Source: a virus (lineage: Duplodnaviria; Heunggongvirae; Uroviricota; Caudoviricetes). From it: a DNA stretch of 32,747 nucleotides. Numbering within the stretch: position 1 is the stretch's first letter; every line of letters starts with the position of its first letter. The stretch spans positions 1 to 32,747 of IMG/VR virus record IMGVR_UViG_2636415906_000003; one strand, 5' to 3'. The notes below the pieces were generated by a model. The model searched no databases and had not been told where the DNA came from. It was given only the letters and a program-made list of their open reading frames with translations. The translations under genes and the position numbers were made by a program. Shown in pieces: positions 7,745-31,739 of this stretch.

Positions 7745-8068
7745 AGAAAGAGCATCTCGCCACCTAATAGGTCGATGCTCGGATCGAGAGATTTAATTAA
7801 CCTCGGTTTTGAAGTTATGCATTCACATAAATCCTCCTGTTGCATGTGCAGCATTGGCTGTGTTTGGCGGCTGCATTTCGCCCATGGAATTGACTTTGGC
7901 GATTGGATGGCCGGTGCTGAACTCCGGCTTACTGGTTAGAGCGCCCGCACTACCAGTGACGCTGTCTTGAGGCGCAGATTGGTTACTGCTTGCCATGAGC
8001 GCTGTTTATACATTGGTCGAGCATCAGCCTGCTCATTCATCCAATCCCAAAGCCAACTACTCTTTGGT

Positions 8069-8109
8069 TCCCGCATTTCGGCGGGACAATCCCATCAATG
8101 TTAAAGAGC
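8069..8109 (-). promoter_or_regulatory. nutL: boxA plus boxB hairpin in the leftward early transcript
   Basis: On the minus strand boxA reads GCTCTTTAACA (plus 8099..8109) and is followed by the hairpin ttcccgc-cgaaat-gcggga (plus 8069..8086); the same boxA and boxB occur at nutR. Confidence 0.6.
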
Positions 8110-8156
8110 CTGCCAATCTGTTCCGTTTGGCTTCCAGCGTCCTGCTGATGGCTTAA

Positions 8157-8240
8157 ATTTAAGATCTCTTTAATTAATGGTCAAGAGTATTTTTGAAGAA
8201 AACTTAAATTTTCTTTCGTAACTTAAGTTTGGCTTTGATT
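8157..8240. promoter_or_regulatory. OL/pL region with P22-type operator-like sites
   Basis: atttaagatctctttaat (8157..8174) has the same TTAAG..CTTTAA half-site structure as the operators at OR, and two weaker similar sites follow up to about 8240. Confidence 0.45.
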
Positions 8241-8252
8241 TTTAAAGGAAAT

Positions 8253-8275
8253 AAAAAAAAGGGGCGAATGCCCCC
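8253..8275 (-). terminator. Rho-independent terminator directly after the repressor gene stop
   Basis: Hairpin ggggcgaatgccccc (8261..8275) followed on the minus-strand transcript by eight U (plus-strand A run 8253..8260). Confidence 0.5.
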
Positions 8276-8926
8276 TTATGGAAGGTTTGCTAGTTTTGCA
8301 TCGACAACTACGCCGATGATTTTGCAGTTTCCGTTGATCTCGATCATCGGATATTGTGGGTTAAGTGGTTTTAGAAACTTCCTGCCTGCATCAATAACTA
8401 ACTTCTTGAAAGTTGCCTCGTTTTCTCCTTCGAGCTTTGCAACTACCAGTTTCCCGTTACGCGGCTCTACTTCAGGATCGACGAGTATTATCATTCCTTC
8501 AGGGATACTGAGACCGGCCGGAGCCGTCATTGAGTCTCCCTTCACGTCCAACCAAAACGAATCTTCTGAACAGTCTACGGTTGTATCGTACCAGTTATCT
8601 ATTGCACGCTTATGATATGGTTCTACAGCTTCCATCCAGCATCCTGCGCTCACCCAGCTAATCAGAGGGTATGACCCTCTTGGATCATGCCTACTGTGAT
8701 AGGCAATGTTTGAAAGACTTTCCTCTCCTTTCATCAGATAGTCAGGGGAACACTTCAACGCATTAGCCAGGGCGAGAAGATTCTCTCCATTTGGCTCTGT
8801 CTCAGAGCGTTCCCACTGAGATATGGCAACATTAGACACGCCGACCATCTTTCCAAGTGCGGCCTGCCTGATCTTGAGTTCTTTTCTCCGAGCGCGAATG
8901 CGCTCTCCCATCAATTGAGTTTTCAT
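8276..8926 (-). CDS. cI: Prophage repressor, P22 C2-type (HTH plus S24 LexA-like autopeptidase domain)
   Basis: 216-aa ORF that is near-identical to my memory of P22 c2 (MKTQLMGERIRARRKELKIRQAALGKMVGVSNVAISQWERSETEPNGENLLAL...); divergent from cro. Confidence 0.9.
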   Translation of the reverse strand: MKTQLMGERIRARRKELKIRQAALGKMVGVSNVAISQWERSETEPNGENLLALANALKCSPDYLMKGEESLSNIAYHSRHDPRGSYPLISWVSAGCWMEAVEPYHKRAIDNWYDTTVDCSEDSFWLDVKGDSMTAPAGLSIPEGMIILVDPEVEPRNGKLVVAKLEGENEATFKKLVIDAGRKFLKPLNPQYPMIEINGNCKIIGVVVDAKLANLP

Positions 8927-8992
8927 AGTTAAGACATCTTAAATAAACTTGACTTAAGATTCCTTTAGTGGATAATTTAAGTGTTCTTTAAT
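8927..8992. promoter_or_regulatory. OR operator region (pRM/pR) with three P22-type operator sites
   Basis: agttaagacatcttaaat (8927..8944), cttaagattcctttag (8953..8968) and atttaagtgttctttaat (8975..8992) share TTAAG-N4-CTTAA symmetry, in the 80-bp gap between the divergent repressor and cro starts. Confidence 0.6.
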
Positions 8993-9006
8993 TTCGGAGC
9001 GAGTCT

Positions 9007-9192
9007 ATGTACAAGAAAGATGTTATCGACCACTTCGGAACCCAGCGTGCTGTAGCTAAAGCGTTAGGCATTAGCGACGCAGCAGTCTCTCAGTGGAAGG
9101 AAGTCATCCCAGAGAAAGACGCCTATCGACTGGAAGTCGTTACAGCTGGCGCCCTGAAGTATCAAGAAAGCGCTTACCGCAAAGCGGCATAA
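9007..9192 (+). CDS. cro: Cro repressor
   Basis: 61-aa ORF with GGAG SD; sequence matches my memory of P22 Cro (MYKKDVIDHFGTQRAVAKALGISDAAVSQWKEVIPEKDAYRLE...). Confidence 0.85.
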   Translation: MYKKDVIDHFGTQRAVAKALGISDAAVSQWKEVIPEKDAYRLEVVTAGALKYQESAYRKAA

Positions 9193-9199
9193 GCAAATT

Positions 9200-9243
9200 G
9201 CTCTTTAACAGTCATGGTCCTCATTCCCGCCGAAATGCGGGAA
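9200..9243 (+). promoter_or_regulatory. nutR: boxA plus boxB hairpin between cro and cII
   Basis: boxA gctctttaaca (9200..9210) and hairpin ttcccgc-cgaaat-gcgggaa (9224..9243); this is the reverse complement of the nutL elements, so both sit in the same orientation in their transcripts. Confidence 0.6.
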
Positions 9244-9300
9244 TACAACGCGCATAAGTTGATGCGCATAACTTCTTATTTGTTAAGGAAATACTTACAT

Positions 9301-9579
9301 ATGGAACTTACAAGTACTCGCAAGAAAGCGAATGCAATTACAAGCAACATCCTGAATCGAATTGCTGTACGTGGTCAGCGAAAGGTTGCCGACGCGTTAG
9401 GGATTAATGAATCGCAAATTTCGCGATGGAAAGACAGCTTCATCCCAAAAATGGGAATGCTTCTGGCTGTTCTTGAATGGGGTGTTGAAGACGAGGAGTT
9501 GGCGGAACTGGCTAAGAAAGTAGCCAGAATGCTGACAAAAGAAAAAGCCCCGAAGAACGGCGAATTCTTCGAGGCCTGA
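9301..9579 (+). CDS. cII: CII-like transcriptional activator (P22 C1 equivalent)
   Basis: Aligns with lambda CII ([25 protein letters not shown] conserved). Start taken at ATG 9301, because the longer ORF from 9214 would run across nutR. Confidence 0.8.
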
Positions 9580-9613
9580 TGTAGAAAGACTGGATCAATC
9601 CACAGGAGTCATT

Positions 9614-9760
9614 ATGACAAAACAACTCAGTCCTTACCAGGACAAAATTCACAAACACATACTACGTGATCGCTTCCTGTCCAGCTTCAAGCAGCCTGGT
9701 CGATTCCGGGCTGAGTTGGAAAAAGTGAAGCTGATGCAGAAGGAGAAAGGTCATGAGTAA
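9614..9760 (+). CDS. Small hypothetical protein (48 aa) between cII and the replication genes
   Basis: ORF with an AGGAG-like SD, its stop overlapping the O-like gene start; positionally like the small ORF between c1 and gene 18 in P22. Confidence 0.4.
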
Positions 9761-10652
9761 CATATCTAATCTAGCCGAAGCCAGAGAGGCCAGAAGGCTA
9801 CAACAACCGCATCAAAGCAGCGGTAAGGGGTATGCCTTGCTGCACCGTAAAATTATGGATGTGCCGTTTTACAAGGACGCAGAAGCTGCGCATCTGTGGG
9901 TTCACTTAATCCTCAAAGCAAAGCATACGCCTGAGTATGTAATGACTGACGCAGGAGAAATTCTGGTAGGCAGAGGGAAGCTACTTGGCGGTAGAAACTC
10001 TCTGGCGTTTGAAACAGGACTCAAACCAGATCGCGTTCAGTACCTGCTTAGAAAGTTCAAAAAACTCGGCATGATTGACTGGGTTTCACACGGTAAATTC
10101 TCAGTTTTCTCGGTAGAGAAATATGACGATTATCAGTCAAATTTTGTACCAGCAGATTACCAGCAAATTACCACCTCAAAGCCAGCAATACCAATGCCTG
10201 CAAGCAATACTGTACCAGCAGATTACCAGCAAATTACCACAGATAAAGAATATAATAATATTATCTCTAATACTGACGTATTAGAGAGTACCGCAGCAGA
10301 CAAAAAGTCTGACAAGAAAAAACCTTCCGTTAGCTGTCAGGATGTTGTCGATGCTTACCACGAAATCCTTCCTGAAGCGCCAAGAATCCGCGCACTGAAT
10401 GACAAGCGTAAAAACCAGATCCGAACGTTCTGGCGCAAAGCCGGAGTGATAACCCGCCAGCTTGACGGGCATGGGTTCACGATGCAGGACTGGAGAAATT
10501 ATTTGAGCTACGTAGGCGAAAATTGCCGATGGATGTTCGAAGAGCGTCCAAACCATCAACGCGGAACCGTCTGGCACAAAAAGGGATTTGATTTCCTGCT
10601 TAACGATAATACCTACCTGAAAGTTCGTGAGGGTGAACACGATGACCGATAA
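9753..10652 (+). CDS. Replication initiator protein (lambda O / P22 gp18-like), containing the origin iterons
   Basis: 299-aa ORF directly upstream of the helicase gene; it contains tandem DNA iterons that encode a repeated [10 protein letters not shown] peptide, followed by an AT-rich tract. Confidence 0.65.
10145..10240. repeat. Origin-of-replication iterons inside the initiator gene
   Basis: Two exact 30-bp direct repeats tgtaccagcagattaccagcaaattaccac (10145..10174 and 10211..10240), each containing TACCAGCA sub-repeats at 11-bp spacing, followed by an AT-rich region to about 10300. Confidence 0.6.
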
Positions 10653-12078
10653 CTTTTATGCGCCGCCCCATAGCATCGAGGCAGAGCAGGCGGTGATTGG
10701 TGGATTGCTTCTGGATGATGACAGCAGTGAGCGCGTCCGGAAAGTTCTGGCGATGCTGAAGCCTGATTCATTTTACAGCCGACCACACAAAATCCTTTTC
10801 GAAGAAATAACCAGAATGCACCGGGAGCAAAAGCCAGTAGATGGCCTGACGCTTTTCGATGAACTGGAGCGTAAATCGTTAACGGCGTCTGTTGGCGGTT
10901 TTGCTTATATCGCTGAGATCGCAAAGAACACGCCGAGCGCCGCAAACATCGTTGCCTATGCAATGCAGGTTCGTGAAACCGCAATGGAACGCTACGCCAT
11001 CAACCGCATGACTGAAGCGACGGAATTGCTCTATTCCCGCAACGGAATGACTGCAACGCAGAAGTACGAAGCTATTCAGGCGATTTTCACGCAACTGACA
11101 GACCATGCAAAAACCGGATCGCGTCGAGGCCTTCGCTCATTTGGTGAGGTCATGGAAGACTGGGTTAGCGACCTTGAGAAGCGATTTGACCCGTCAGGCG
11201 AACAACGAGGAATGAGCACAGGGATCCCATCGCTGGACAGGATGCTGTCACCGAAAGGTCTGGTGAAAGGCTCTCTGTTCGTCATTGGCGCTCGCCCTAA
11301 GATGGGGAAAACGACGCTATACAGCCAGATGGCAATCAACTGCGCAGTGCATGAGAAAAAGCCCGCTCTGATGTTCAGTCTTGAAATGCCAGGCGACCAG
11401 ATACTGGAAAAGCTGGTAGGACAGAAGTCAGGTGTTAACCCGAATATTTTTTACCTTCCGGCGACAAATGACGCTGATGACGGCTATCAGGGTGATTACG
11501 ATGGTGACTTCAACAGGGCGATAGAAACAGCAAATCGCTTGAGTGAAATCGACATGCTTTACATCGACGACACGCCGGGATTATCTCTGGCTCAAATCGT
11601 CAGCGAAAGCCGTCGAATCAAGCGAGAAAAAGGATGTGTTGGCATGATTCTGGTCGATTACCTGACACTAATGACCGCTGAGAAGGCCGATCGCAACGAC
11701 CTTGCTTACGGCATGATCACCAAAGGACTGAAGAACCTTGCCAAAGAGCTTGATTGCGTTGTTGTGCTTCTGACGCAGCTTAACCGCGCACTGGAAAGCC
11801 GAACCAATAAACGCCCATTACCAAGTGACTCACGAGATACAGGGCAGATTGAACAGGATTGCGATTATTGGGTGGGGATCCATCGTGAAGGTGCTTTTGA
11901 TGACAGTGTTCCACCTGGTGAAACCGAACTAATCCTTCGTCTTAATCGTCATGGCAATACCGGCACGGTGTATTGCATTCAGGCAAATGGCGCTATTTAT
12001 GACACAGACCAACAGTCTGCTGAAATGCGCCGCCGTGAACGCGAGGAACCGCAATCCAAGAAGAAAGGAGGATTCTGA
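10642..12078 (+). CDS. Replicative DNA helicase, DnaB family (P22 gp12-like)
   Basis: DnaB N-terminal domain signature (HSIEAEQAVIGGLLLD), Walker A GARPKMGKT, and a DnaB-type C-terminal domain. Start taken at ATG 10642 after a GAGGG SD. Confidence 0.85.
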   Translation: MTDNFYAPPHSIEAEQAVIGGLLLDDDSSERVRKVLAMLKPDSFYSRPHKILFEEITRMHREQKPVDGLTLFDELERKSLTASVGGFAYIAEIAKNTPSAANIVAYAMQVRETAMERYAINRMTEATELLYSRNGMTATQKYEAIQAIFTQLTDHAKTGSRRGLRSFGEVMEDWVSDLEKRFDPSGEQRGMSTGIPSLDRMLSPKGLVKGSLFVIGARPKMGKTTLYSQMAINCAVHEKKPALMFSLEMPGDQILEKLVGQKSGVNPNIFYLPATNDADDGYQGDYDGDFNRAIETANRLSEIDMLYIDDTPGLSLAQIVSESRRIKREKGCVGMILVDYLTLMTAEKADRNDLAYGMITKGLKNLAKELDCVVVLLTQLNRALESRTNKRPLPSDSRDTGQIEQDCDYWVGIHREGAFDDSVPPGETELILRLNRHGNTGTVYCIQANGAIYDTDQQSAEMRRREREEPQSKKKGGF

Positions 12079-12166
12079 TGACCATCTACATCACTGAGCT
12101 AATAACAGGCCTGCTGGTAATCGCAGGCCTTTTTATTTGGGGGAGAGTAATTGGAGGCTTTGAGAA

Positions 12167-12394
12167 ATGAGTACGATAGCTGAACTTGTCAGGGCTAATT
12201 TTCGTGAAGAGTTGGTGCGTTGGTATCGGTATCGTTCATCGTCCAGTTTGCCGCTTGATGAGTTGTATGAGCATTCACCTGCCGCACGACGCTATCCGCG
12301 TGACCGCGTTCTTCGCCGGTTGGTTAAAATCGATAATGATTTTCAGTGTGACAAAATTATCCAGCAATTAGATTTGATGGCTGATGATGAATGA
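12167..12394 (+). CDS. Hypothetical nin-region protein (75 aa)
   Basis: ORF with a GGAGG SD. A 29-codon hydrophobic micro-ORF (12078..12167) lies just upstream and is not listed separately. Confidence 0.45.
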   Translation: MSTIAELVRANFREELVRWYRYRSSSSLPLDELYEHSPAARRYPRDRVLRRLVKIDNDFQCDKIIQQLDLMADDE

Positions 12395-12809
12395 TTTCAT
12401 TCTGCACGAAACCAATAAATCACAATTCTGGTTAGTTCTGAAACAAATCCTCTCTACCGGCAAACGCTGGCGAATCAAAATATCTGAGTACCGTGAGAAG
12501 CGTACATTGTCACAAAACAATCTGCTGTGGATGTGGAATGCAGAAATAGCCGCACAGTTATCTGCTGCTTCTGCTGAAAACTTCACGCCTGAAGAGGTTC
12601 ATGAGTGGCTGAAAGATATATTTTGTCCGGCTAAAAGGGTGACGATTTTTAATATTACACGATGCGTTAAATCAACACGTCAGCTTGATATTGGAGATAT
12701 GCACAAATATCTGACCGATATTGACCAGTGGGCGCATCAGAAGGGATTACGACTAACCATTCCTGATAATTGCGAGTACCGGGATCTAAAGGAGAGGCAA
12801 GTAGAGTGA
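12384..12809 (+). CDS. ninB: NinB-like recombination protein
   Basis: 141-aa ORF with the conserved S-Q-N-x-x-x-W segment (TLSQNNLLWMW) as in lambda NinB; sits after the replication genes. Confidence 0.65.
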   Translation: MMNDFILHETNKSQFWLVLKQILSTGKRWRIKISEYREKRTLSQNNLLWMWNAEIAAQLSAASAENFTPEEVHEWLKDIFCPAKRVTIFNITRCVKSTRQLDIGDMHKYLTDIDQWAHQKGLRLTIPDNCEYRDLKERQVE

Positions 12810-13333
12810 CTATCAAATCAAATACGCCAGCACACGACAAGGACTGCTGGCAAACGCCGCTTTGGCTTTTTGATGCACTGGATATTGAGTTTGGATTCTG
12901 GCTGGATTCGGCAGCGAGCGACAAAAATGCTCTGTGTGCTCACTGGCTAACTGAGGCCGACGACGCGCTCAATTCTGAGTGGGTAAGCCACGGTGCAATC
13001 TGGAATAACCCACCGTACAGCAATATCAGGCCGTGGGTGGAAAAAGCCGCTGAGCAGTGCATACAACAGCGACAGACGGTAGTTATGCTTGTGCCAGAGG
13101 ATATGTCAGTCGGATGGTTCAGCAAGGCTCTGGAGAGTGTCGACGAAGTTCGCATTATCACTGATGGACGGATTAATTTTATCGAACCATCGACAGGGCT
13201 GGAGAAGAAGGGAAACAGCAAAGGCTCCATGCTGCTGATTTGGCGACCGTTCATCAGTCCTCGACGGATGTTTACTACCGTATCCAAAGCGGCATTGATG
13301 GCGATCGGGCAGGGCGTCAGGAGGGCAGAATGA
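12806..13333 (+). CDS. Phage DNA N6-adenine methyltransferase (Dam-like)
   Basis: Catalytic NPPY motif (WNNPPYSN). The ORF has no ATG; start taken at GTG 12806, 8 nt after a GGAGAGG SD (the ORF track starts at TTG 12770). Confidence 0.75.
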
Positions 13334-13512
13334 GACGACAGCGACGAAGTTTCACCGACATCATCTGCGAAAACTGCAAATACCTTCCAACGAAACGCTC
13401 CAGAAATAAACGCAAGCCAATCCCAAAAGAATCTGACGTAAAAACCTTCAATTACACGGCTCACCTGTGGGATATCCGGTGGCTTAGAGAACGTGCGAGG
13501 AAAACAAGGTGA
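13330..13512 (+). CDS. ninE: NinE-like protein
   Basis: 60-aa ORF ([34 protein letters not shown]...) matching my memory of lambda NinE; its start overlaps the methylase stop. Confidence 0.7.
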
Positions 13513-13679
13513 TTGACCCAAATCGAAGTTACGAACAAGAAAGCGTCGAGCGAGCTTTAACGTGCGCTAACTGCGGTCAGAAGCTGCATGTGCTGGAAGT
13601 TCACGTGTGTGAGCACTGCTGCGCAGAACTGATGAGCGATCCGAATAGCTCAATGTACGAGGAAGAAGACGATGAGTGA
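13509..13679 (+). CDS. ninF: NinF-like protein
   Basis: 56-aa Cys-rich ORF (...[25 protein letters not shown]...) matching my memory of lambda NinF; GTG start overlapping the ninE stop. Confidence 0.65.
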
Positions 13680-13776
13680 GTTAATAAATGGCAATGCCAT
13701 CAAAATGACAAGCATTGAAATCGCTGAGTTGGTGGGAAGTCGTCATCCCGGTTTATGGAAAACGCTGGTTCATTGA
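13672..13776 (+). pseudogene. 5' stub of a gene (34 codons) ending at the deletion junction
   Basis: [25 protein letters not shown]... looks like the start of a phage DNA-binding or regulatory protein, then hits a stop where the frame changes into portal-homologous sequence. Confidence 0.35.
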
Positions 13777-14947
13777 TGACATTGAGCGTGTCGAAGGGCA
13801 CATTGCAAAAGCAATGGATCCACAGCGTTTGTACAACCTTCAGGTTTCAATGCTGGCTGATACTGCAGCACAAGACCCCGGTCAGATCCCTATAGTTGGC
13901 ATGGAGCAAATTCGTGGACTTGAGAAGCACTGGGAGGCTCGCAACAAGAAACGCCCAGCGTTCTTGCCGTTGCGCGAAGTGAGAGATAAATCTGGCAACA
14001 TTATCGCTGGAGCTACCCCGGCAGGATATACACAGCCTGCGGTTATGAATCAGGCATTGGCTGCATTACTACAGCAAACCAGTGCTGATATTCAGGAGGT
14101 TACAGGCGGCAGTCAGGCCATGCAGCAGATGCCAAGTAATATTGCTCAGGAAACGGTTAACAACTTGATGAACAGAGCAGATATGGCTTCGTTTATCTAT
14201 CTGGACAATATGGCGAAAAGTCTTAAACGCGCTGGTGAAGTATGGCTGTCAATGGCGCGTGAAGTGTACGGTTCAGAACGTGAAGTGCGCATCGTTAACG
14301 AAGATGGAAGTGATGATATCGCTGTCCTGAGCGCACAGGTTGTTGACAGGCAAACAGGGGCTGTTGTTGCGTTAAATGACCTTTCTGTCGGTCGATACGA
14401 TGTGACGGTTGATGTTGGACCAAGCTACACAGCACGACGTGATGCAACGGTTTCTGTACTGACAAATGTCCTTAGCTCTATGCTTCCAACAGACCCAATG
14501 CGCCCGGCAATTCAGGGTATTATTCTGGACAATATCGATGGCGAAGGCCTTGATGACTTCAAAGAGTACAACCGAAACCAACTGCTGATATCTGGTATTG
14601 CAAAACCACGCAATGAGAAAGAGCAGCAGATTGTTCAACAGGCGCAAATGGCAGCACAAAGCCAGCCAAATCCTGAAATGGTTCTCGCTCAGGCGCAAAT
14701 GGTAGCAGCGCAGGCAGAAGCGCAAAAAGCAACTAACGAAACTGCTCAAACTCAAATCAAAGCATTTACTGCCCAGCAGGATGCGATGGAGAGTCAGGCA
14801 AACACTGTCTATAAACTGGCTCAAGCCAGAAACATCGATGACAAAGCAGTGATGGAGGCAATACGCCTTCTGAAAGATGTCGCCGAGTCACAACAACAGC
14901 AATTCCAGTCACCACCACAGTCACCGGCAGACTTAATGCCGAGTTAA
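13715..14947 (+). pseudogene. Portal protein (P22 gp1-like), C-terminal ~400 codons only; N-terminal part deleted
   Basis: From about 13742 (VIPVYGKRWF...) the translation aligns with the middle and C-terminal regions of the P22-type portal, which is more than 700 aa. The reading frame is open only from 13715 and no intact portal N-terminus or terminase gene is upstream. Confidence 0.7.
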
Positions 14948-17821: not shown

Positions 17822-19240
17822 ATGCCTATTCAGCAACTTCCGCTTATGAAAGGTGTCGGCAAAGACTTCCGAAACGCCGACTATATCGACTATCTGCCAG
17901 TGAATATGTTGGCTACACCCAAAGAAATCCTGAACAGCAGCGGATATCTTCGCTCATTCCCGGGCATTGCCAAACGTTCTGATGTGAACGGTGTATCGCG
18001 CGGAGTCGAGTACAACATGGCGCAGAATGCTGTTTATCGTGTCTGTGGTGGCAAGCTCTACAAAGGCGAAAGCGAAGTCGGTGACGTCGCCGGAAGTGGT
18101 CGCGTATCAATGGCACATGGTCGGACATCTCAGGCTGTAGGCGTTAATGGTCAACTGGTCGAGTATCGCTATGATGGCACGGTTAAAACCGTCTCAAACT
18201 GGCCTGCAGACAGCGGATTTACGCAGTATGAGTTAGGTTCAGTCCGCGACATTACACGCTTACGTGGGCGTTATGCGTGGTCAAAAGACGGCACGGATTC
18301 ATGGTTTATCACTGACCTTGAAGACGAATCGCATCCTGACCGTTACAGCGCACAATATCGTGCCGAGTCGCAGCCGGACGGCATCATCGGCATCGGAACA
18401 TGGCGAGACTTCATCGTCTGCTTTGGTTCATCGACGATTGAATATTTTTCCCTGACAGGTGCAACCACCGTTGGTGCCGCGTTGTATGTCGCACAGCCAT
18501 CACTGATGGTGCAGAAAGGAATTGCCGGGACTTACTGTAAAACGCCGTTTGCTGATTCGTATGCGTTTATCAGCAATCCGGCAACAGGTGCGCCGTCTGT
18601 ATACATCATCGGCTCCGGTCAGGTGTCACCAATTGCCAGTGCGAGCATTGAGAAAATCCTCCGCTCCTACACTGCTGATGAACTGGCTAATGGTGTGATG
18701 GAATCGCTGAGATTTGATGCTCATGAGTTGCTGATTATCCACCTTCCGCGCCATGTTCTCGTGTACGACGCATCTTCAAGCGCCAATGGTCCGCAATGGT
18801 GCGTACTGAAAACAGGACTGTATGACGATGTATACCGCGCTATCGACTTCATTTACGAAGGCAATCAGATAACGTGCGGCGATAAGCTGGAATCGGTGAC
18901 CGGGAAATTGCAGTTCGATATCAGCAGTCAGTATGGGCTTCAACAGGAACACCTGCTGTTTACTCCACTGTTCAAAGCGGATAACGCCAGATGCTTCGAT
19001 CTGGAGGTGGAATCATCCACTGGCGTAGCTCAGTATGCCGACCGCCTGTTCCTCTCTGCAACCACTGACGGCATCAATTACGGGCGTGAGCAGATGATTG
19101 AGCAGAATGAACCGTTCGTTTACGACAAACGCGTTTTGTGGAAGCGTGTCGGGCGAATAAGGAAAAATGTCGGCTTCAAATTGCGCGTTATCACTAAGTC
19201 ACCTGTCACCCTGTCTGGCTGCTCTATTAGGCTGGAGTAA
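17822..19240 (+). CDS. Tail accessory protein (P22 gp10-like)
   Basis: 472-aa ORF matching my memory of P22 gp10 along its full length (MPIQQLPLMKGVGKDFRNADYIDYLPVNMLATPKEILNSSGYLRSFPGI...). Confidence 0.85.
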   Translation: MPIQQLPLMKGVGKDFRNADYIDYLPVNMLATPKEILNSSGYLRSFPGIAKRSDVNGVSRGVEYNMAQNAVYRVCGGKLYKGESEVGDVAGSGRVSMAHGRTSQAVGVNGQLVEYRYDGTVKTVSNWPADSGFTQYELGSVRDITRLRGRYAWSKDGTDSWFITDLEDESHPDRYSAQYRAESQPDGIIGIGTWRDFIVCFGSSTIEYFSLTGATTVGAALYVAQPSLMVQKGIAGTYCKTPFADSYAFISNPATGAPSVYIIGSGQVSPIASASIEKILRSYTADELANGVMESLRFDAHELLIIHLPRHVLVYDASSSANGPQWCVLKTGLYDDVYRAIDFIYEGNQITCGDKLESVTGKLQFDISSQYGLQQEHLLFTPLFKADNARCFDLEVESSTGVAQYADRLFLSATTDGINYGREQMIEQNEPFVYDKRVLWKRVGRIRKNVGFKLRVITKSPVTLSGCSIRLE

Positions 19241-19242
19241 TA

Positions 19243-19737
19243 ATGATTTCACATGAAGAGTTGAAGCGTCATTTATCATATGACCCAGAAACCGGGGTTT
19301 TTACCCGAAAAATATCAAATACAGCGAGCGTCACCGTTGGTGATGAAGCGGGAACCATGTGCACTGGTTATTTAAGGATAATGGTCTGTGGTAAGAGATA
19401 CTTAGCGCATAGGCTTGCTTGGTTTTATATGACAGGAAAACCTGCAAATTGCTTAATAGATCATATTAACGGAGACAGAACGGATAACAGATTTTCAAAT
19501 TTAAGATTGGCAAATAGATCCCAGAATGGGATGAACAGGAATATTCAAAGAAATAATAAGTCAGGATATCCGGGTGTCTGTTGGCACAAAAATCTCTGCA
19601 AGTGGACTGTTTCTTTCAAGAAAAATAAAAAACAGGTTCACGTTGGATGCTTCGATGACCTGGACGAAGCTATCTCAGCATCAATGATGGCAAGAGCAGA
19701 AAATTTTGGAGAGTTTGCAAGGCAGAGGATCGAGTAA
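19243..19737 (+). CDS. HNH homing-type endonuclease with AP2-like DNA-binding domain
   Basis: HNH motif ([25 protein letters not shown]) plus an AP2-like segment ([31 protein letters not shown]); the gene is visibly more AT-rich than its neighbours. Confidence 0.8.
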
Positions 19738-20438
19738 TGGTTGATTCATCACTGAATGATCCTGTCGTGGTTCAGGCTACGCGCCTTGATGCTTCAATTT
19801 TGCCACGCAATATATTCAGCCAGTCTTACCTGCTGTATGTCATAAATCAGGGTGCTGATGTCGGTGCGATTGCTGGGAAGGCAAATCAGGCTGGTCAGGG
19901 CGCTTATGATGCTCAAGTGAAAAACGATGAACAGGACGTCGAACTGGCAGATCACGATGCAAGAATCACCGCAAACACAAAAGCGATAAATCTCCTTGAG
20001 GTCAGGTTAACAACTGCCGAAGGGAAGATAGTCGTACTGCGTAGCGATGTTGATTACTTGCTGGATGAGGTTATCGATATTCAGGCGCATCTGGTCACTG
20101 TTGACCAAAGACTGGATGGCGTAGAAAGCGATGTATCTGACATTAAGAGTGATTACGTATCGAAAACCGTAACCGAATCGCAGTCTCTTGCGTCACCGCT
20201 GGATGTAAAAACATCATATTCAGTTGATGGAATTCAGGTTGTTGGAGCAAGAAATACCGGATGGACTGCAGCCACAGGTACACCTCTTCTTGGCTCATTC
20301 AACGCTAACCAGTCATACACGGTCGGCACTACGTACACACAATCCGAAGTCGCGGCTCTCGCTACAGGTTTGCAGCAGGCGCGGCAGCGTATTCTGGCGC
20401 TTGAAACAGCACTTAGATTACATGGGCTGATTGACTGA
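19737..20438 (+). CDS. Tail needle protein (P22 gp26-like)
   Basis: 233-aa ORF matching P22 gp26 at the N-terminus ([17 protein letters not shown]) and C-terminus ([20 protein letters not shown]...LRLHGLID). Confidence 0.85.
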
Positions 20439-31664: not shown

Positions 31665-31739
31665 TGGTGTCCCCTGCAGGAATCGAACCTGCAATTAGCC
31701 CTTAGGAGGGGCTCGTTATATCCATTTAACTAAGAGGAC
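31665..31739 (-). tRNA. argW: tRNA-Arg (anticodon CCU)
   Basis: Read from the minus strand: acceptor stem, D-arm, anticodon loop CUCCUAA (anticodon CCU), T-arm GGTTCGATTCC and a 3' CCA; 75 nt. Confidence 0.9.

What the first reader, a model, noticed from the sequence alone, without database searches (positions are those of the whole stretch)
19243..19737. Free-standing HNH/AP2 endonuclease gene inserted between gp10 and gp26
P22 has no gene between gene 10 and gene 26. Here a 164-codon ORF with an HNH motif and an AP2-like DNA-binding segment is wedged in with start and stop codons abutting its neighbours, and it is visibly more AT-rich than the flanking virion genes. This looks like a homing endonuclease invasion.
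Basis: partly seen in the sequence, partly recalled or inferred. Interest (0 to 1): 0.55.

Follow-up and report, generated by a model that had tools for sequence, protein, structure and literature searches.

The report
Selfish nuclease gene in P22-like prophage
A small mobile "homing endonuclease" gene of a well-known phage type has inserted itself between two tail-assembly genes of a P22-like prophage of E. coli; comparison with relatives shows it has spread recently into the same spot in many different phage backgrounds, which makes it a clear but ordinary example of a selfish gene.

Summary
A 164-codon ORF (19243-19737, +) lies between gp10 (17822-19240) and the tail-needle gene gp26 (19737-20438). 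It has 40% GC against 51% and 48% for its neighbours. It encodes an I-HmuI-like HNH ("HNN") nuclease domain followed by an AP2 DNA-binding domain.

P22, HK620, Sf6 and at least 120 IMG/VR contigs have the empty site. This insert is in only 15 of 5426 complete E. coli genomes, while about 917 carry this gp10.

Across 19 occupied loci the insert is almost invariant (2-5 variable sites). The flanks differ by 4-18%, and each flank is closer to some empty-site phage than to most other occupied loci. Two diverged alleles (75-78% aa) sit at the same junction in more distant P22-like phages, under purifying selection (dN/dS about 0.08).

The element entered inside the last codons of gp10. It carries a recoded replacement tail for gp10, and its own ORF ends in the displaced gp10 tail, which keeps the ribosome-binding site and the stop/start overlap for gp26.

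An unrelated NUMOD4-HNH gene occupies the same junction in other phages. The homing-endonuclease reading is supported. This is a new member of a known kind. Cleavage activity and target site are untested. The host prophage in this window is defective.

The parts
17822..19240 (+). gp10 (head closure / packaged-DNA stabilisation protein), the upstream host gene
   Evidence: Pfam Phage_stabilise E 3e-300; PHROG 578 head closure Hc3
19217..19740 (+). Near-invariant block shared by all occupied loci. This is the mobile element plus the few bases it shares with the empty site.
   Evidence: In the 9-locus alignment the last variable site on the left is 19216 and the first on the right is 19741, with 2 variable sites inside. 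In the 19-locus alignment there is one extra left-edge variant at 19219, and the only variable sites within the ORF are 19298, 19407, 19572, 19620 and 19731
19223..19240 (+). Recoded replacement tail of gp10 (TCT ATT AGG CTG GAG TAA, encoding SIRLE*), carried by the insert in place of the native CAG ATA AGG ATT GAG TAA (QIRIE*)
   Evidence: Junction comparison with HK620, Bas106 and Sf6. The same CS(I/V)R(L/V)E* tail is present in the two diverged alleles L017 and L021
19234..19237 (+). GGAG Shine-Dalgarno sequence for the HEG, 5 nt upstream of its ATG, inside the recoded gp10 tail
   Evidence: Read directly from the sequence
19243..19737 (+). Free-standing HNH(HNN)-AP2 homing endonuclease gene, 164 aa, identical to RefSeq WP_021529423.1
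19399..19533 (+). HNH_3 nuclease core (residues 53-97). Motif codons: D73/H74 at 19459-19464, N86 at 19498-19500, N95 at 19525-19527, and N98 at 19534-19536 just past the Pfam envelope.
   Evidence: Pfam HNH_3 E 4e-16. D73, H74, N86 and N98 are invariant and N95 is present in 61 of 64 homologs. The region aligns to I-HmuI residues 49-100. I-HmuI is the top fold match
19561..19701 (+). AP2-type DNA-binding domain (residues 107-153): a three-stranded sheet followed by a helix
   Evidence: Pfam AP2 E 8e-5, below the gathering score. PDB 3igm AP2 E 0.004. The model has pLDDT 92, with strands 112-115, 120-127 and 130-137 and helix 140-158. Foldseek matches TEM1 AP2 (rmsd 2.1 A over 56 columns) and AtERF1 (TM 0.68)
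19723..19739 (+). Displaced native gp10 tail, now the last codons and stop of the HEG (CAG AGG ATC GAG TAA, encoding QRIE*; native CAG ATA AGG ATT GAG TAA minus ATA). It contains the GAGGA Shine-Dalgarno sequence (19725-19729) and the TAATG stop/start overlap for gp26.
   Evidence: Only the 3 junction alleles out of 64 family members end in RIE; the family's native end is GEFAR plus 0-3 residues in most members
19737..20438 (+). gp26 tail needle, the downstream host gene
   Evidence: PHROG 1219 tail needle protein, E 6e-113

Best explanation
The ORF is a free-standing homing endonuclease gene of the HNN-AP2 class: an I-HmuI-like His-Me-finger nuclease fused to an AP2 DNA-binding domain. This lineage is specialised on the gp10|gp26 junction of P22-like phages.

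Shown: it is a 497-bp net insertion (500 bp gained, 3 bp lost) inside the last five codons of gp10. The cassette supplies a recoded gp10 tail and stop, its own ribosome-binding site, and an ORF that reads into the displaced original gp10 tail. This preserves the Shine-Dalgarno sequence and the overlapping stop/start that couple gp26 translation. One allele is nearly identical in at least 19 loci whose flanks are diverse and interleave with the flanks of empty-site phages.

Inferred: during late transcription of an intact phage the enzyme is made together with the virion proteins. It recognises the uninterrupted junction (about GGCTGC|CAGATAAGGATTGAGTAATGG) in a co-infecting or resident HEG-less P22-like genome. 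It nicks or cuts near that site, and recombinational repair from the HEG-bearing genome copies the cassette in, with very short co-conversion tracts. P22-like phages carry their own Erf/Rad52-type recombinase. Occupied genomes would be immune because the site is split and its left half recoded. In this particular window the host prophage is defective (truncated portal; no terminase, lysis or late-activator genes), so the gene is probably silent here and can only act as a donor.
For: Identity: HNH_3 E 4e-16, AP2 E 8e-5, PHROG 99 'HNH endonuclease' E 4e-70. The AlphaFold model has pLDDT 92. The top PDB fold match is I-HmuI 1u3e (probability 1.00), and AP2/ERF domains match the C-terminal part. 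The catalytic D73-H74...N86...N95/N98 are conserved in 61-64 of 64 homologs. The family is described as free-standing phage HEGs (PMC2248197; PMC5714182 group 2; PMC10448857 citing Magnani 2004).

Presence/absence: the site is empty in P22, HK620, Sf6, Bas106 and others and in at least 120 IMG/VR contigs. The HEG is in 15 of 5426 E. coli genomes, against about 917 with this gp10.

Mobility: diversity is 0.000-0.005 per 100 bp inside the HEG, 0.04-0.10 on the left and 0.10-0.18 on the right. There are 11 left and 11 right flank haplotypes in 17 occupied loci. Each flank is closer to an empty-site contig (0.96-1.00) than to the median occupied locus (0.89-0.92). The window's right flank is 100% identical to empty contig L080.

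Site specificity over time: alleles 75-78% identical lie at the same junction with the same geometry in phages whose gp10 is 71-77% and gp26 45% identical. HEG dN/dS is 0.078, and the HEG's synonymous divergence (0.63) is lower than that of gp10 (0.84).

Decay typical of the HEG life cycle: IS2-interrupted copies in 3 genomes and a frameshifted copy in L031.

A second, unrelated HNH HEG is found at the same junction.
Against: No enzymatic evidence exists: cleavage, target site, nick versus double-strand cut, and immunity are all inferred. P22-like phages are highly mosaic, so ordinary homologous recombination at gene boundaries could have moved a passive insert between backgrounds. No promoter-like site precedes the gene, and this window's prophage lacks the late-gene activator region, so expression here is doubtful. 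The low frequency (about 1.6% of prophages with this gp10) shows no ongoing sweep. The AP2 Pfam score is below the curated threshold. Foldseek E-values are modest (3.8e-3 at best), because each hit covers only one domain.
Confidence: 0.8

Rival explanations
1. The gene is a passive passenger. It inserted once by illegitimate recombination and has since been shuffled between P22-like backgrounds by the ordinary high-frequency homologous recombination of these mosaic phages, without any nuclease-driven drive. The nuclease may be inactive or act elsewhere.
For: P22-like virion clusters are mosaic: gp4, gp26 and gp20 flanks differ by 13-31% among closely related loci. The insert's frequency is low. 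Decayed copies exist. All alleles share one ancestral junction architecture, which is consistent with a single original insertion.
Against: Polymorphism resumes within about 7 bp on the left and 4 bp on the right of the invariant block, across 11 haplotypes on each side. Random crossovers in kilobase-long homology would be expected to leave longer shared flanks. Crossovers into gp26 types that differ by 15-40% right after the ATG would have to fall within about 18 nt. The catalytic residues are intact, and the protein is under strong purifying selection (dN/dS 0.078), which a passive non-functional gene would not show.
Confidence: 0.12
2. The gene is a domesticated accessory gene that benefits the phage or the lysogen, rather than a selfish element. 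It could be an exclusion or competition nuclease that damages superinfecting HEG-less P22-like phages, or an AP2-type DNA-binding regulator.
For: HEG-derived domains have been co-opted in phage-satellite conflicts (PMC10448857). Free-standing HEGs in T-even phages are known to cause marker exclusion of relatives (background knowledge). The ORF stays intact in three differently deleted copies of the same defective prophage.
Against: The gene lies inside the late virion operon with no promoter-like site of its own, so it should be silent in a lysogen. It is absent from about 98% of related prophages. It is disrupted by IS2 or a frameshift in several. Its intactness in the defective prophages is explained by their near-identity (100% over the region), meaning recent common descent. 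The catalytic residues argue against a pure regulator.
Confidence: 0.05
3. The gene is a packaging-associated HNH nuclease of the kind that assists terminase in some cos phages (HK97 gp74 type).
For: It is an HNH protein encoded within a structural/packaging gene cluster.
Against: It belongs to HNH_3/I-HmuI group 2, not the PF01844 group that contains the packaging HNH proteins (PMC5714182). It is not adjacent to terminase. It is absent from P22, HK620 and Sf6, which package normally. It has a sequence-specific AP2 domain.
Confidence: 0.01

Closest known systems
HNN-AP2 free-standing homing endonucleases of phages (Xanthomonas phages Xp10/OP1/Xop411 group I; T5, T1, Rtp, Felix O1, RB49 and Jerseyvirus 'HNH homing endonucleases'; PHROG 99)
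   Same: The architecture and size are the same: an N-terminal HNN nuclease with the boxes HRLAW, D-H, DNR, NLR and xN, no CX2C zinc dyads, and a C-terminal AP2 domain. Both are free-standing, AT-rich and variably present. PHROG 99 E 4e-70; 2967 phage records have relatives (PMC2248197).
   Different: The closest member outside this junction is at most about 54% identical. This lineage is tied to one specific junction in P22-like temperate phages, and its C-terminal codons come from the host gene. The Xoo-phage copies were described as scattered without conserved flanks (PMC2248197).
I-HmuI (Bacillus phage SPO1 intron-encoded HNH homing endonuclease, PDB 1u3e)
   Same: It is the best structural match for the N-terminal two-thirds (Foldseek probability 1.00, 104 columns). 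The motif aligns residue for residue: D73-H74 to D74-H75, and N95 to N96. Both belong to His-Me finger group 2 (PMC5714182). I-HmuI is a strand-specific nickase (background knowledge), so nicking is the default expectation here.
   Different: I-HmuI is intron-encoded and uses a C-terminal helix-turn-helix domain instead of AP2. Sequence identity is only about 23%, and the phmmer E-value of 0.19 is not significant on its own.
NUMOD4-HNH_3-HTH gene at the same gp10|gp26 junction (phage HZ41, E. coli SBF22 and at least 15 other genomes)
   Same: It has the same insertion junction, the same orientation, a diverged replacement 3' end for gp10, and an ORF that runs into the gp26 start while keeping a Shine-Dalgarno sequence.
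   Different: The protein is unrelated apart from the HNH_3 core (BLASTP E 0.025 over 56 residues), with different DNA-binding modules. It has a 21-nt spacer with its own RBS, and it comes with a much longer diverged gp10 3' segment of about 90 codons.
T4-type free-standing HEGs (seg and mob genes) and 'intronless homing'
   Same: These are also free-standing genes between conserved phage genes that spread by cleavage of the HEG-less allele and recombinational repair with co-conversion of flanks (background knowledge; PMC10448857).
   Different: They belong to different nuclease families (GIY-YIG; the HNH PF01844 group for Mob proteins, PMC5714182). T4 HEGs usually cut at a distance from their insertion site and give long co-conversion tracts. 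Here the shared tract is only a few bases.

Membership tests
His-Me finger / HNH_3 (I-HmuI-like, group 2) nucleases | Significant match to the HNH_3 profile above the curated threshold | tested here: met
   PF13392, 58.7 bits against a cut-off of 24.8, E 4e-16, residues 53-97
His-Me finger / HNH_3 (I-HmuI-like, group 2) nucleases | Catalytic D-H general base and the two Asn of the HNN motif are present | tested here: met
   D73, H74, N86 and N98 are invariant and N95 is present in 61 of 64 homologs. They align to I-HmuI D74/H75/N96
His-Me finger / HNH_3 (I-HmuI-like, group 2) nucleases | Beta-beta-alpha-metal fold | tested here: met
   The model (pLDDT 92) has strands 71-74 and 87-90 followed by helix 92-96. 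The top PDB fold hit is 1u3e, probability 1.00, E 3.8e-3. This rests on a predicted structure only.
His-Me finger / HNH_3 (I-HmuI-like, group 2) nucleases | Metal-dependent DNA nicking or cleavage activity | not testable with these tools
   Needs biochemistry
AP2 DNA-binding domain | Match to Pfam AP2 above the gathering score | tested here: not met
   23.3 bits against a cut-off of 33.3 (E 8e-5). Many close homologs do carry a precomputed PF00847 hit.
AP2 DNA-binding domain | Three-stranded antiparallel sheet packed on a C-terminal helix | tested here: met
   Strands 112-115, 120-127 and 130-137 and helix 140-158. Foldseek matches 7et5 TEM1 AP2 (rmsd 2.1 A over 56 columns, probability 1.00) and 1gcc AtERF1 (TM 0.68 normalised to the target). 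phmmer hit to Plasmodium AP2 3igm, E 0.004.
Homing endonuclease gene (functional definition) | Presence/absence polymorphism at a precise site in otherwise homologous genomes | tested here: met
   A 497-bp insertion relative to HK620/Bas106/Sf6/P22. 15 occupied against about 900 other E. coli genomes with this gp10. At least 120 exact empty sites in IMG/VR.
Homing endonuclease gene (functional definition) | Evidence of lateral spread into the same site in different backgrounds | tested here: met
   Insert diversity is at most 0.005 against 0.04-0.18 in the flanks. The flanks interleave with those of empty-site loci, with 11 haplotypes on each side.
Homing endonuclease gene (functional definition) | The enzyme cleaves the HEG-less allele and inheritance is biased | not testable with these tools
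   Needs cleavage assays and phage crosses
Packaging-associated HNH (HK97 gp74 type) | PF01844-type HNH adjacent to terminase in a cos phage | tested here: not met
   There is no PF01844 hit. The gene lies between gp10 and gp26.

The most novel reading that the evidence does not exclude
The gp10|gp26 boundary of P22-like phages may be a contested landing pad for which at least two unrelated HNH homing endonucleases (AP2-type and NUMOD4-type) compete. On this reading, the AP2-type element uses an unusual 'tail-swap' strategy. It cuts inside the 3' end of an essential virion gene and inserts there without an intron or intein. It brings a recoded copy of the gene's last codons, which restores gp10 and destroys the recognition site. 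It also uses the displaced original codons, stop, Shine-Dalgarno sequence and stop/start overlap as its own 3' end, so that expression of the downstream essential gene is unchanged. If the recognition site really spans these codons, this would be a compact natural example of how a free-standing HEG can target coding sequence in temperate phages. It would also be a tractable system (HK620, Sf6, P22 against vB_EcoP-683R2 and HZ41) for studying competition between HEGs.
Probability: 0.3. Interest if true: 0.5.

Novelty: new member of a known kind. Interest (0 to 1): 0.33.

Why it matters
It adds a well-documented case of homing-endonuclease dynamics in temperate, P22-like phages and their prophages. 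Most knowledge of free-standing HEGs comes from virulent T-even, T5 and ICP1 phages. The data capture invasion, persistence under purifying selection, decay (IS2 insertion, frameshift) and competition with a second HEG at one precisely defined junction. The predicted 27-bp target makes the enzyme easy to test, and it could serve as a sequence-specific nickase. Practically, it also flags annotation errors: the same gene is called 'endolysin' in ON470594, and a homolog is called 'class I holin' in phage S4lw. It does not change any general concept.

Tried and rejected
(1) I looked for a footprint of precise HEG loss, meaning the recoded SIRLE tail directly abutting gp26 (pattern TGCTCTATTAGGCTGGAGTAATGG), in IMG/VR. 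There were 0 hits, so there is no evidence for loss by deletion between the 12-nt imperfect direct repeats.

(2) I scanned one genome per GTDB species with the three junction alleles. No close relative turned up (best about 50% identity), so the hosts of the diverged alleles L017 and L021 remain unknown (metagenomic contigs only).

(3) The literature search for a prior description of a gp10/gp26 HEG in P22-like phages found nothing. The two most relevant Casjens reviews, and Magnani 2004, are not held in the library, so a prior mention cannot be excluded.

(4) The promoter/terminator scan found nothing specific to the gene, and counts were at or below the shuffled expectation.

(5) I considered that Sf6-type phages natively have the recoded gp10 tail, because BLAST matches ran to the gp10 stop. 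I rejected this after reading the Sf6 sequence, which has the ordinary CAGATAAGGATTGAG tail.

(6) I considered the packaging-HNH and regulator readings and rejected them (see the rival explanations).

Full report
THE OBSERVATION

The window holds an ATG-initiated ORF of 164 codons at 19243..19737 on the + strand. Upstream is gp10 (17822..19240; Pfam Phage_stabilise, E 3e-300; PHROG 'head closure Hc3'). Downstream is gp26 (19737..20438; PHROG 'tail needle protein', E 6e-113), followed by gp14, gp7 and gp20 in the usual P22 order.

The gp10 stop is at 19238-19240. Two bases follow, then the ORF's ATG. The ORF's TAA (19735-19737) shares its last A with the gp26 ATG.

The ORF has GC 0.40 and GC3 0.39, against 0.51/0.54 for gp10 and 0.48/0.43 for gp26. 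The 300-nt GC profile falls from about 0.50 to 0.387 across it.

P22 itself has gene 10 ending at 31681 and gene 26 starting at 31685. HK620, Sf6 and Bas106 have the two genes overlapping by one base.

WHAT THE PROTEIN IS

Pfam gives HNH_3 (E 4e-16, 58.7 bits, residues 53-97) and AP2 (E 8e-5, residues 107-153). The AP2 score of 23.3 bits is below the gathering score of 33.3. PHROGs gives family 99 'HNH endonuclease' at E 4e-70.

Because the AP2 call was sub-threshold, I built an alignment of 64 homologs and predicted the structure (mean pLDDT 92, pTM 0.80). A Foldseek search against the PDB gave three informative matches:
- The homing endonuclease I-HmuI (1u3e) is first, with probability 1.00 over 104 columns.
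- The Arabidopsis TEM1 AP2 domain matches the C-terminal sheet-plus-helix with rmsd 2.1 A over 56 columns.
- The AtERF1 GCC-box-binding domain matches the same region with a TM-score of 0.68 normalised to the target.

The E-values are modest (3.8e-3 at best) because each hit covers only one of the two domains.

In the alignment D73, H74, N86 and N98 are invariant, and N95 is present in 61 of 64 sequences. The phmmer alignment to I-HmuI places D73-H74 on I-HmuI D74-H75 and N95 on N96.

The conserved boxes HRLAW, DH, DNR, NLR and xN, together with the absence of CX2C dyads, match the 'HNN-AP2' class of free-standing phage endonucleases described for Xanthomonas phages (PMC2248197). This class falls in His-Me-finger group 2 along with I-HmuI (PMC5714182).

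The family is very large. 2967 phage records (4741 places) have a relative at E<=1e-8, often with several copies per genome. 4926 proteins match at E<=1e-10 in the metagenome-scale database. Outside the junction studied here, nothing exceeds about 54% identity.

ANATOMY OF THE INSERTION

Empty sites read ...CTGTCTGGCTGC CAG ATA AGG ATT GAG TAATGG... (HK620 and Bas106; Sf6 differs by two bases). In this sequence gp10 ends in CQIRIE* and gp26 starts in the TAATG.

The window reads ...GGCTGC TCT ATT AGG CTG GAG TAA TA ATG...[HEG]...GCA AGG CAG AGG ATC GAG TAATGG...

Relative to the empty site, 500 bp (19223-19722) are inserted after GGCTGC and 3 bp (ATA) are lost, for a net gain of 497 bp. Two consequences follow:
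- The cassette brings a recoded gp10 tail (SIRLE*) containing a GGAG Shine-Dalgarno sequence 5 nt before the HEG's ATG.
- The HEG's reading frame runs into the displaced native gp10 tail, so the protein ends in QRIE*. The GAGGA Shine-Dalgarno sequence and the stop/start overlap that serve gp26 are kept.

The last codons appear to be borrowed rather than native. Of the 64 family members aligned, only the three junction alleles end in (Q/K)RIE. Most of the others end at GEFAR plus 0-3 residues. The exact breakpoint is ambiguous by a few bases, because the two tails form an imperfect direct repeat (AGGCTGGAGTAA / AGGATCGAGTAA).

DISTRIBUTION AND EVIDENCE OF MOBILITY

Among sequenced phages only vB_EcoP-683R2 has the insert, where it is annotated 'endolysin'. 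A dozen other coliphages match in two pieces spanning 1104 instead of 1601 bp.

In 5426 complete E. coli genomes the HEG DNA occurs in 15, always at 99.5% identity or more. About 917 genomes carry this gp10.

All annotated occupied loci encode the identical protein WP_021529423.1. Their gp4, gp10 and gp26 proteins carry several different accessions, and one locus has a knob-type needle.

In an alignment of 19 occupied loci, mean pairwise difference per 100 bp is as follows:

| Region | Mean pairwise difference per 100 bp |
|---|---|
| Inside the HEG | 0.000-0.005 |
| gp10 | 0.04-0.10 |
| gp26 | 0.10-0.18 |

In the 9-locus set the last variable site on the left is 19216 and the first on the right is 19741.

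I compared 17 occupied loci with 112 empty-site contigs over the 300 nt on each side:
- Every occupied flank has a closer empty-site relative (0.96-1.00) than the median occupied locus (0.89-0.92).
- The window's right flank is 100% identical to the empty contig L080.
- There are 11 distinct haplotypes on each side.

So the element, and essentially only the element, is shared. That is the pattern expected from repeated copying into one site with very short co-conversion tracts.

AN OLDER ASSOCIATION WITH THE SITE

Two diverged alleles were found in metagenomic contigs: P0003 at 78% aa identity and P0004 at 75%. Both lie at the same junction with the same 2-nt spacer, the same stop/start overlap, the same CS(I/V)R(L/V)E* gp10 tail and the same (K)RIE* HEG end. 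In those phages gp10 is 71-77%, gp26 45% and gp4 40% identical to the window's. The HEG GC there is again 0.40, against 0.51 for gp10.

Between the window and L017 the HEG has dN/dS = 0.078. Its synonymous difference (0.63) and non-synonymous difference (0.10) are both smaller than those of gp10 (0.84 and 0.21). The protein has therefore been kept functional over a long period and is, if anything, younger than the divergence of its hosts.

Decay also occurs. Three genomes carry copies split by IS2, and L031 has a 1-nt deletion.

A HOTSPOT

Phage HZ41, E. coli SBF22 and at least 15 other E. coli genomes carry a different gene at the same junction: 181 aa with NUMOD4 + HNH_3 + HTH domains. It resembles the AP2-type protein only in the HNH core (E 0.025). 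It too comes with a diverged replacement 3' end for gp10, and it runs into the gp26 start.

Salmonella phage UPF_BP1 has a third, again unrelated, HNH gene at the gp4|gp10 junction.

MECHANISM

The following are shown: the identity of the domains, the intact motif, the precise insertion, the near-invariance in diverse flanks, and conservation of the site across diverged alleles.

The following are inferred:
- Expression is from the late operon. No promoter-like site precedes the gene.
- The enzyme recognises the uninterrupted junction.
- It nicks, as I-HmuI does (background knowledge), or cuts.
- Recombinational repair from the occupied genome copies the cassette in.
- Occupied alleles are immune because the site is split and its left half recoded.

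One speculative detail: AP2 domains are reported to favour GC-rich targets (PMC10448857, citing Magnani 2004). The GCTGCC at the empty site becomes GCTGCT in the occupied allele.

I put 0.8 on the element being an active or recently active homing endonuclease gene. The main rival, at 0.12, is a passive insert moved by the general mosaic recombination of these phages. The very short shared tracts and the purifying selection argue against it, but only an experiment can exclude it.

CONTEXT IN THIS WINDOW

The window is a P22-like prophage next to intS and the argW tRNA region. It is identical to the prophage of E. coli XB2 except for window 7931-13742.

The prophage is defective:
- The portal ORF (13715..14947) matches only profile positions 276-594.
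- No terminase, lysis or late-activator genes lie between the Dam methylase gene (12770..13333) and the portal fragment.
- XB2 and NC22 carry different deletions of the same prophage.

In this genome the HEG is therefore most likely a silent passenger. It could still serve as a donor to a superinfecting relative.

VERDICT

The gene is already labelled 'HNH endonuclease' in RefSeq, and the family and its behaviour are known, so this is a new member of a known kind.

The points of moderate interest are the tail-swap architecture that lets it sit inside the end of an essential gene, the clean population signature of spread, and the sharing of one junction by two unrelated HEGs. I found no paper describing this site, but the most relevant reviews were not available to me. 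Interest: 0.33.

Noticed in passing
window 7931-14947: The host prophage is defective. The portal ORF (13715..14947, 410 aa) matches only positions 276-594 of the P22_portal profile. Nothing resembling terminase, lysis genes or the late activator lies between the Dam methylase gene (12770..13333) and the portal fragment. E. coli XB2 and NC22 carry the same prophage at the same chromosomal site with different internal deletions, forming a decay series.
   Followed up: partly
L003 2063-2608 (phage HZ41); L007 (E. coli SBF22): A different homing-endonuclease-like gene (181 aa, NUMOD4 + HNH_3 + HTH) occupies the same gp10|gp26 junction. It is accompanied by a strongly diverged last ~90 codons of gp10. 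It is present at full length in at least 16 complete E. coli genomes, next to both knob and non-knob needle genes.
   Followed up: partly
L173 1969-2553 (Salmonella phage UPF_BP1): A third, unrelated HNH endonuclease gene (194 aa) lies between gp4 and gp10, overlapping the start of the gp10 homology. The P22-like connector/needle gene block seems to attract HEGs at several gene boundaries.
   Followed up: partly
L008 2761-4387 (E. coli FDAARGOS_1280; also strains 2779 and 5283): The HEG is interrupted by an IS2 element after about nt 108, leaving a truncated 'HNH endonuclease' CDS. This is probably the source of the 130-aa protein cluster P0005.
   Followed up: partly
L031 (IMGVR_UViG_2547132415_000014), position equivalent to window 19298: A one-base deletion frameshifts the HEG early in the ORF, making this a decaying copy.
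   Followed up: no
L001 2044-2538 (ON470594.1); phage S4lw and STP03 records: Misannotations: the identical gene is labelled 'endolysin' in vB_EcoP-683R2. Homologs at 46% identity are labelled 'putative class I holin' (S4lw) and 'endolysin' (STP03).
   Followed up: no
L016 (NZ_JBXRYH010000004.1, E. coli EC20 'plasmid p3', 176.6 kb): An occupied P22-like virion gene cluster lies on a record labelled as a 176-kb plasmid. It was not checked whether this is a real plasmid-borne prophage or an assembly/labelling artefact.
   Followed up: no
window 19737-20438 and loci L010-L016: The first ~60 nt of gp26 exist in two sharply different allelic forms ([10 protein letters not shown]... and SNLN(T/E)PVI(V/I)Q...). 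These recombine freely with the rest of the gene and with knob and non-knob C-termini. The boundary of this mosaicism coincides with the HEG insertion point.
   Followed up: partly
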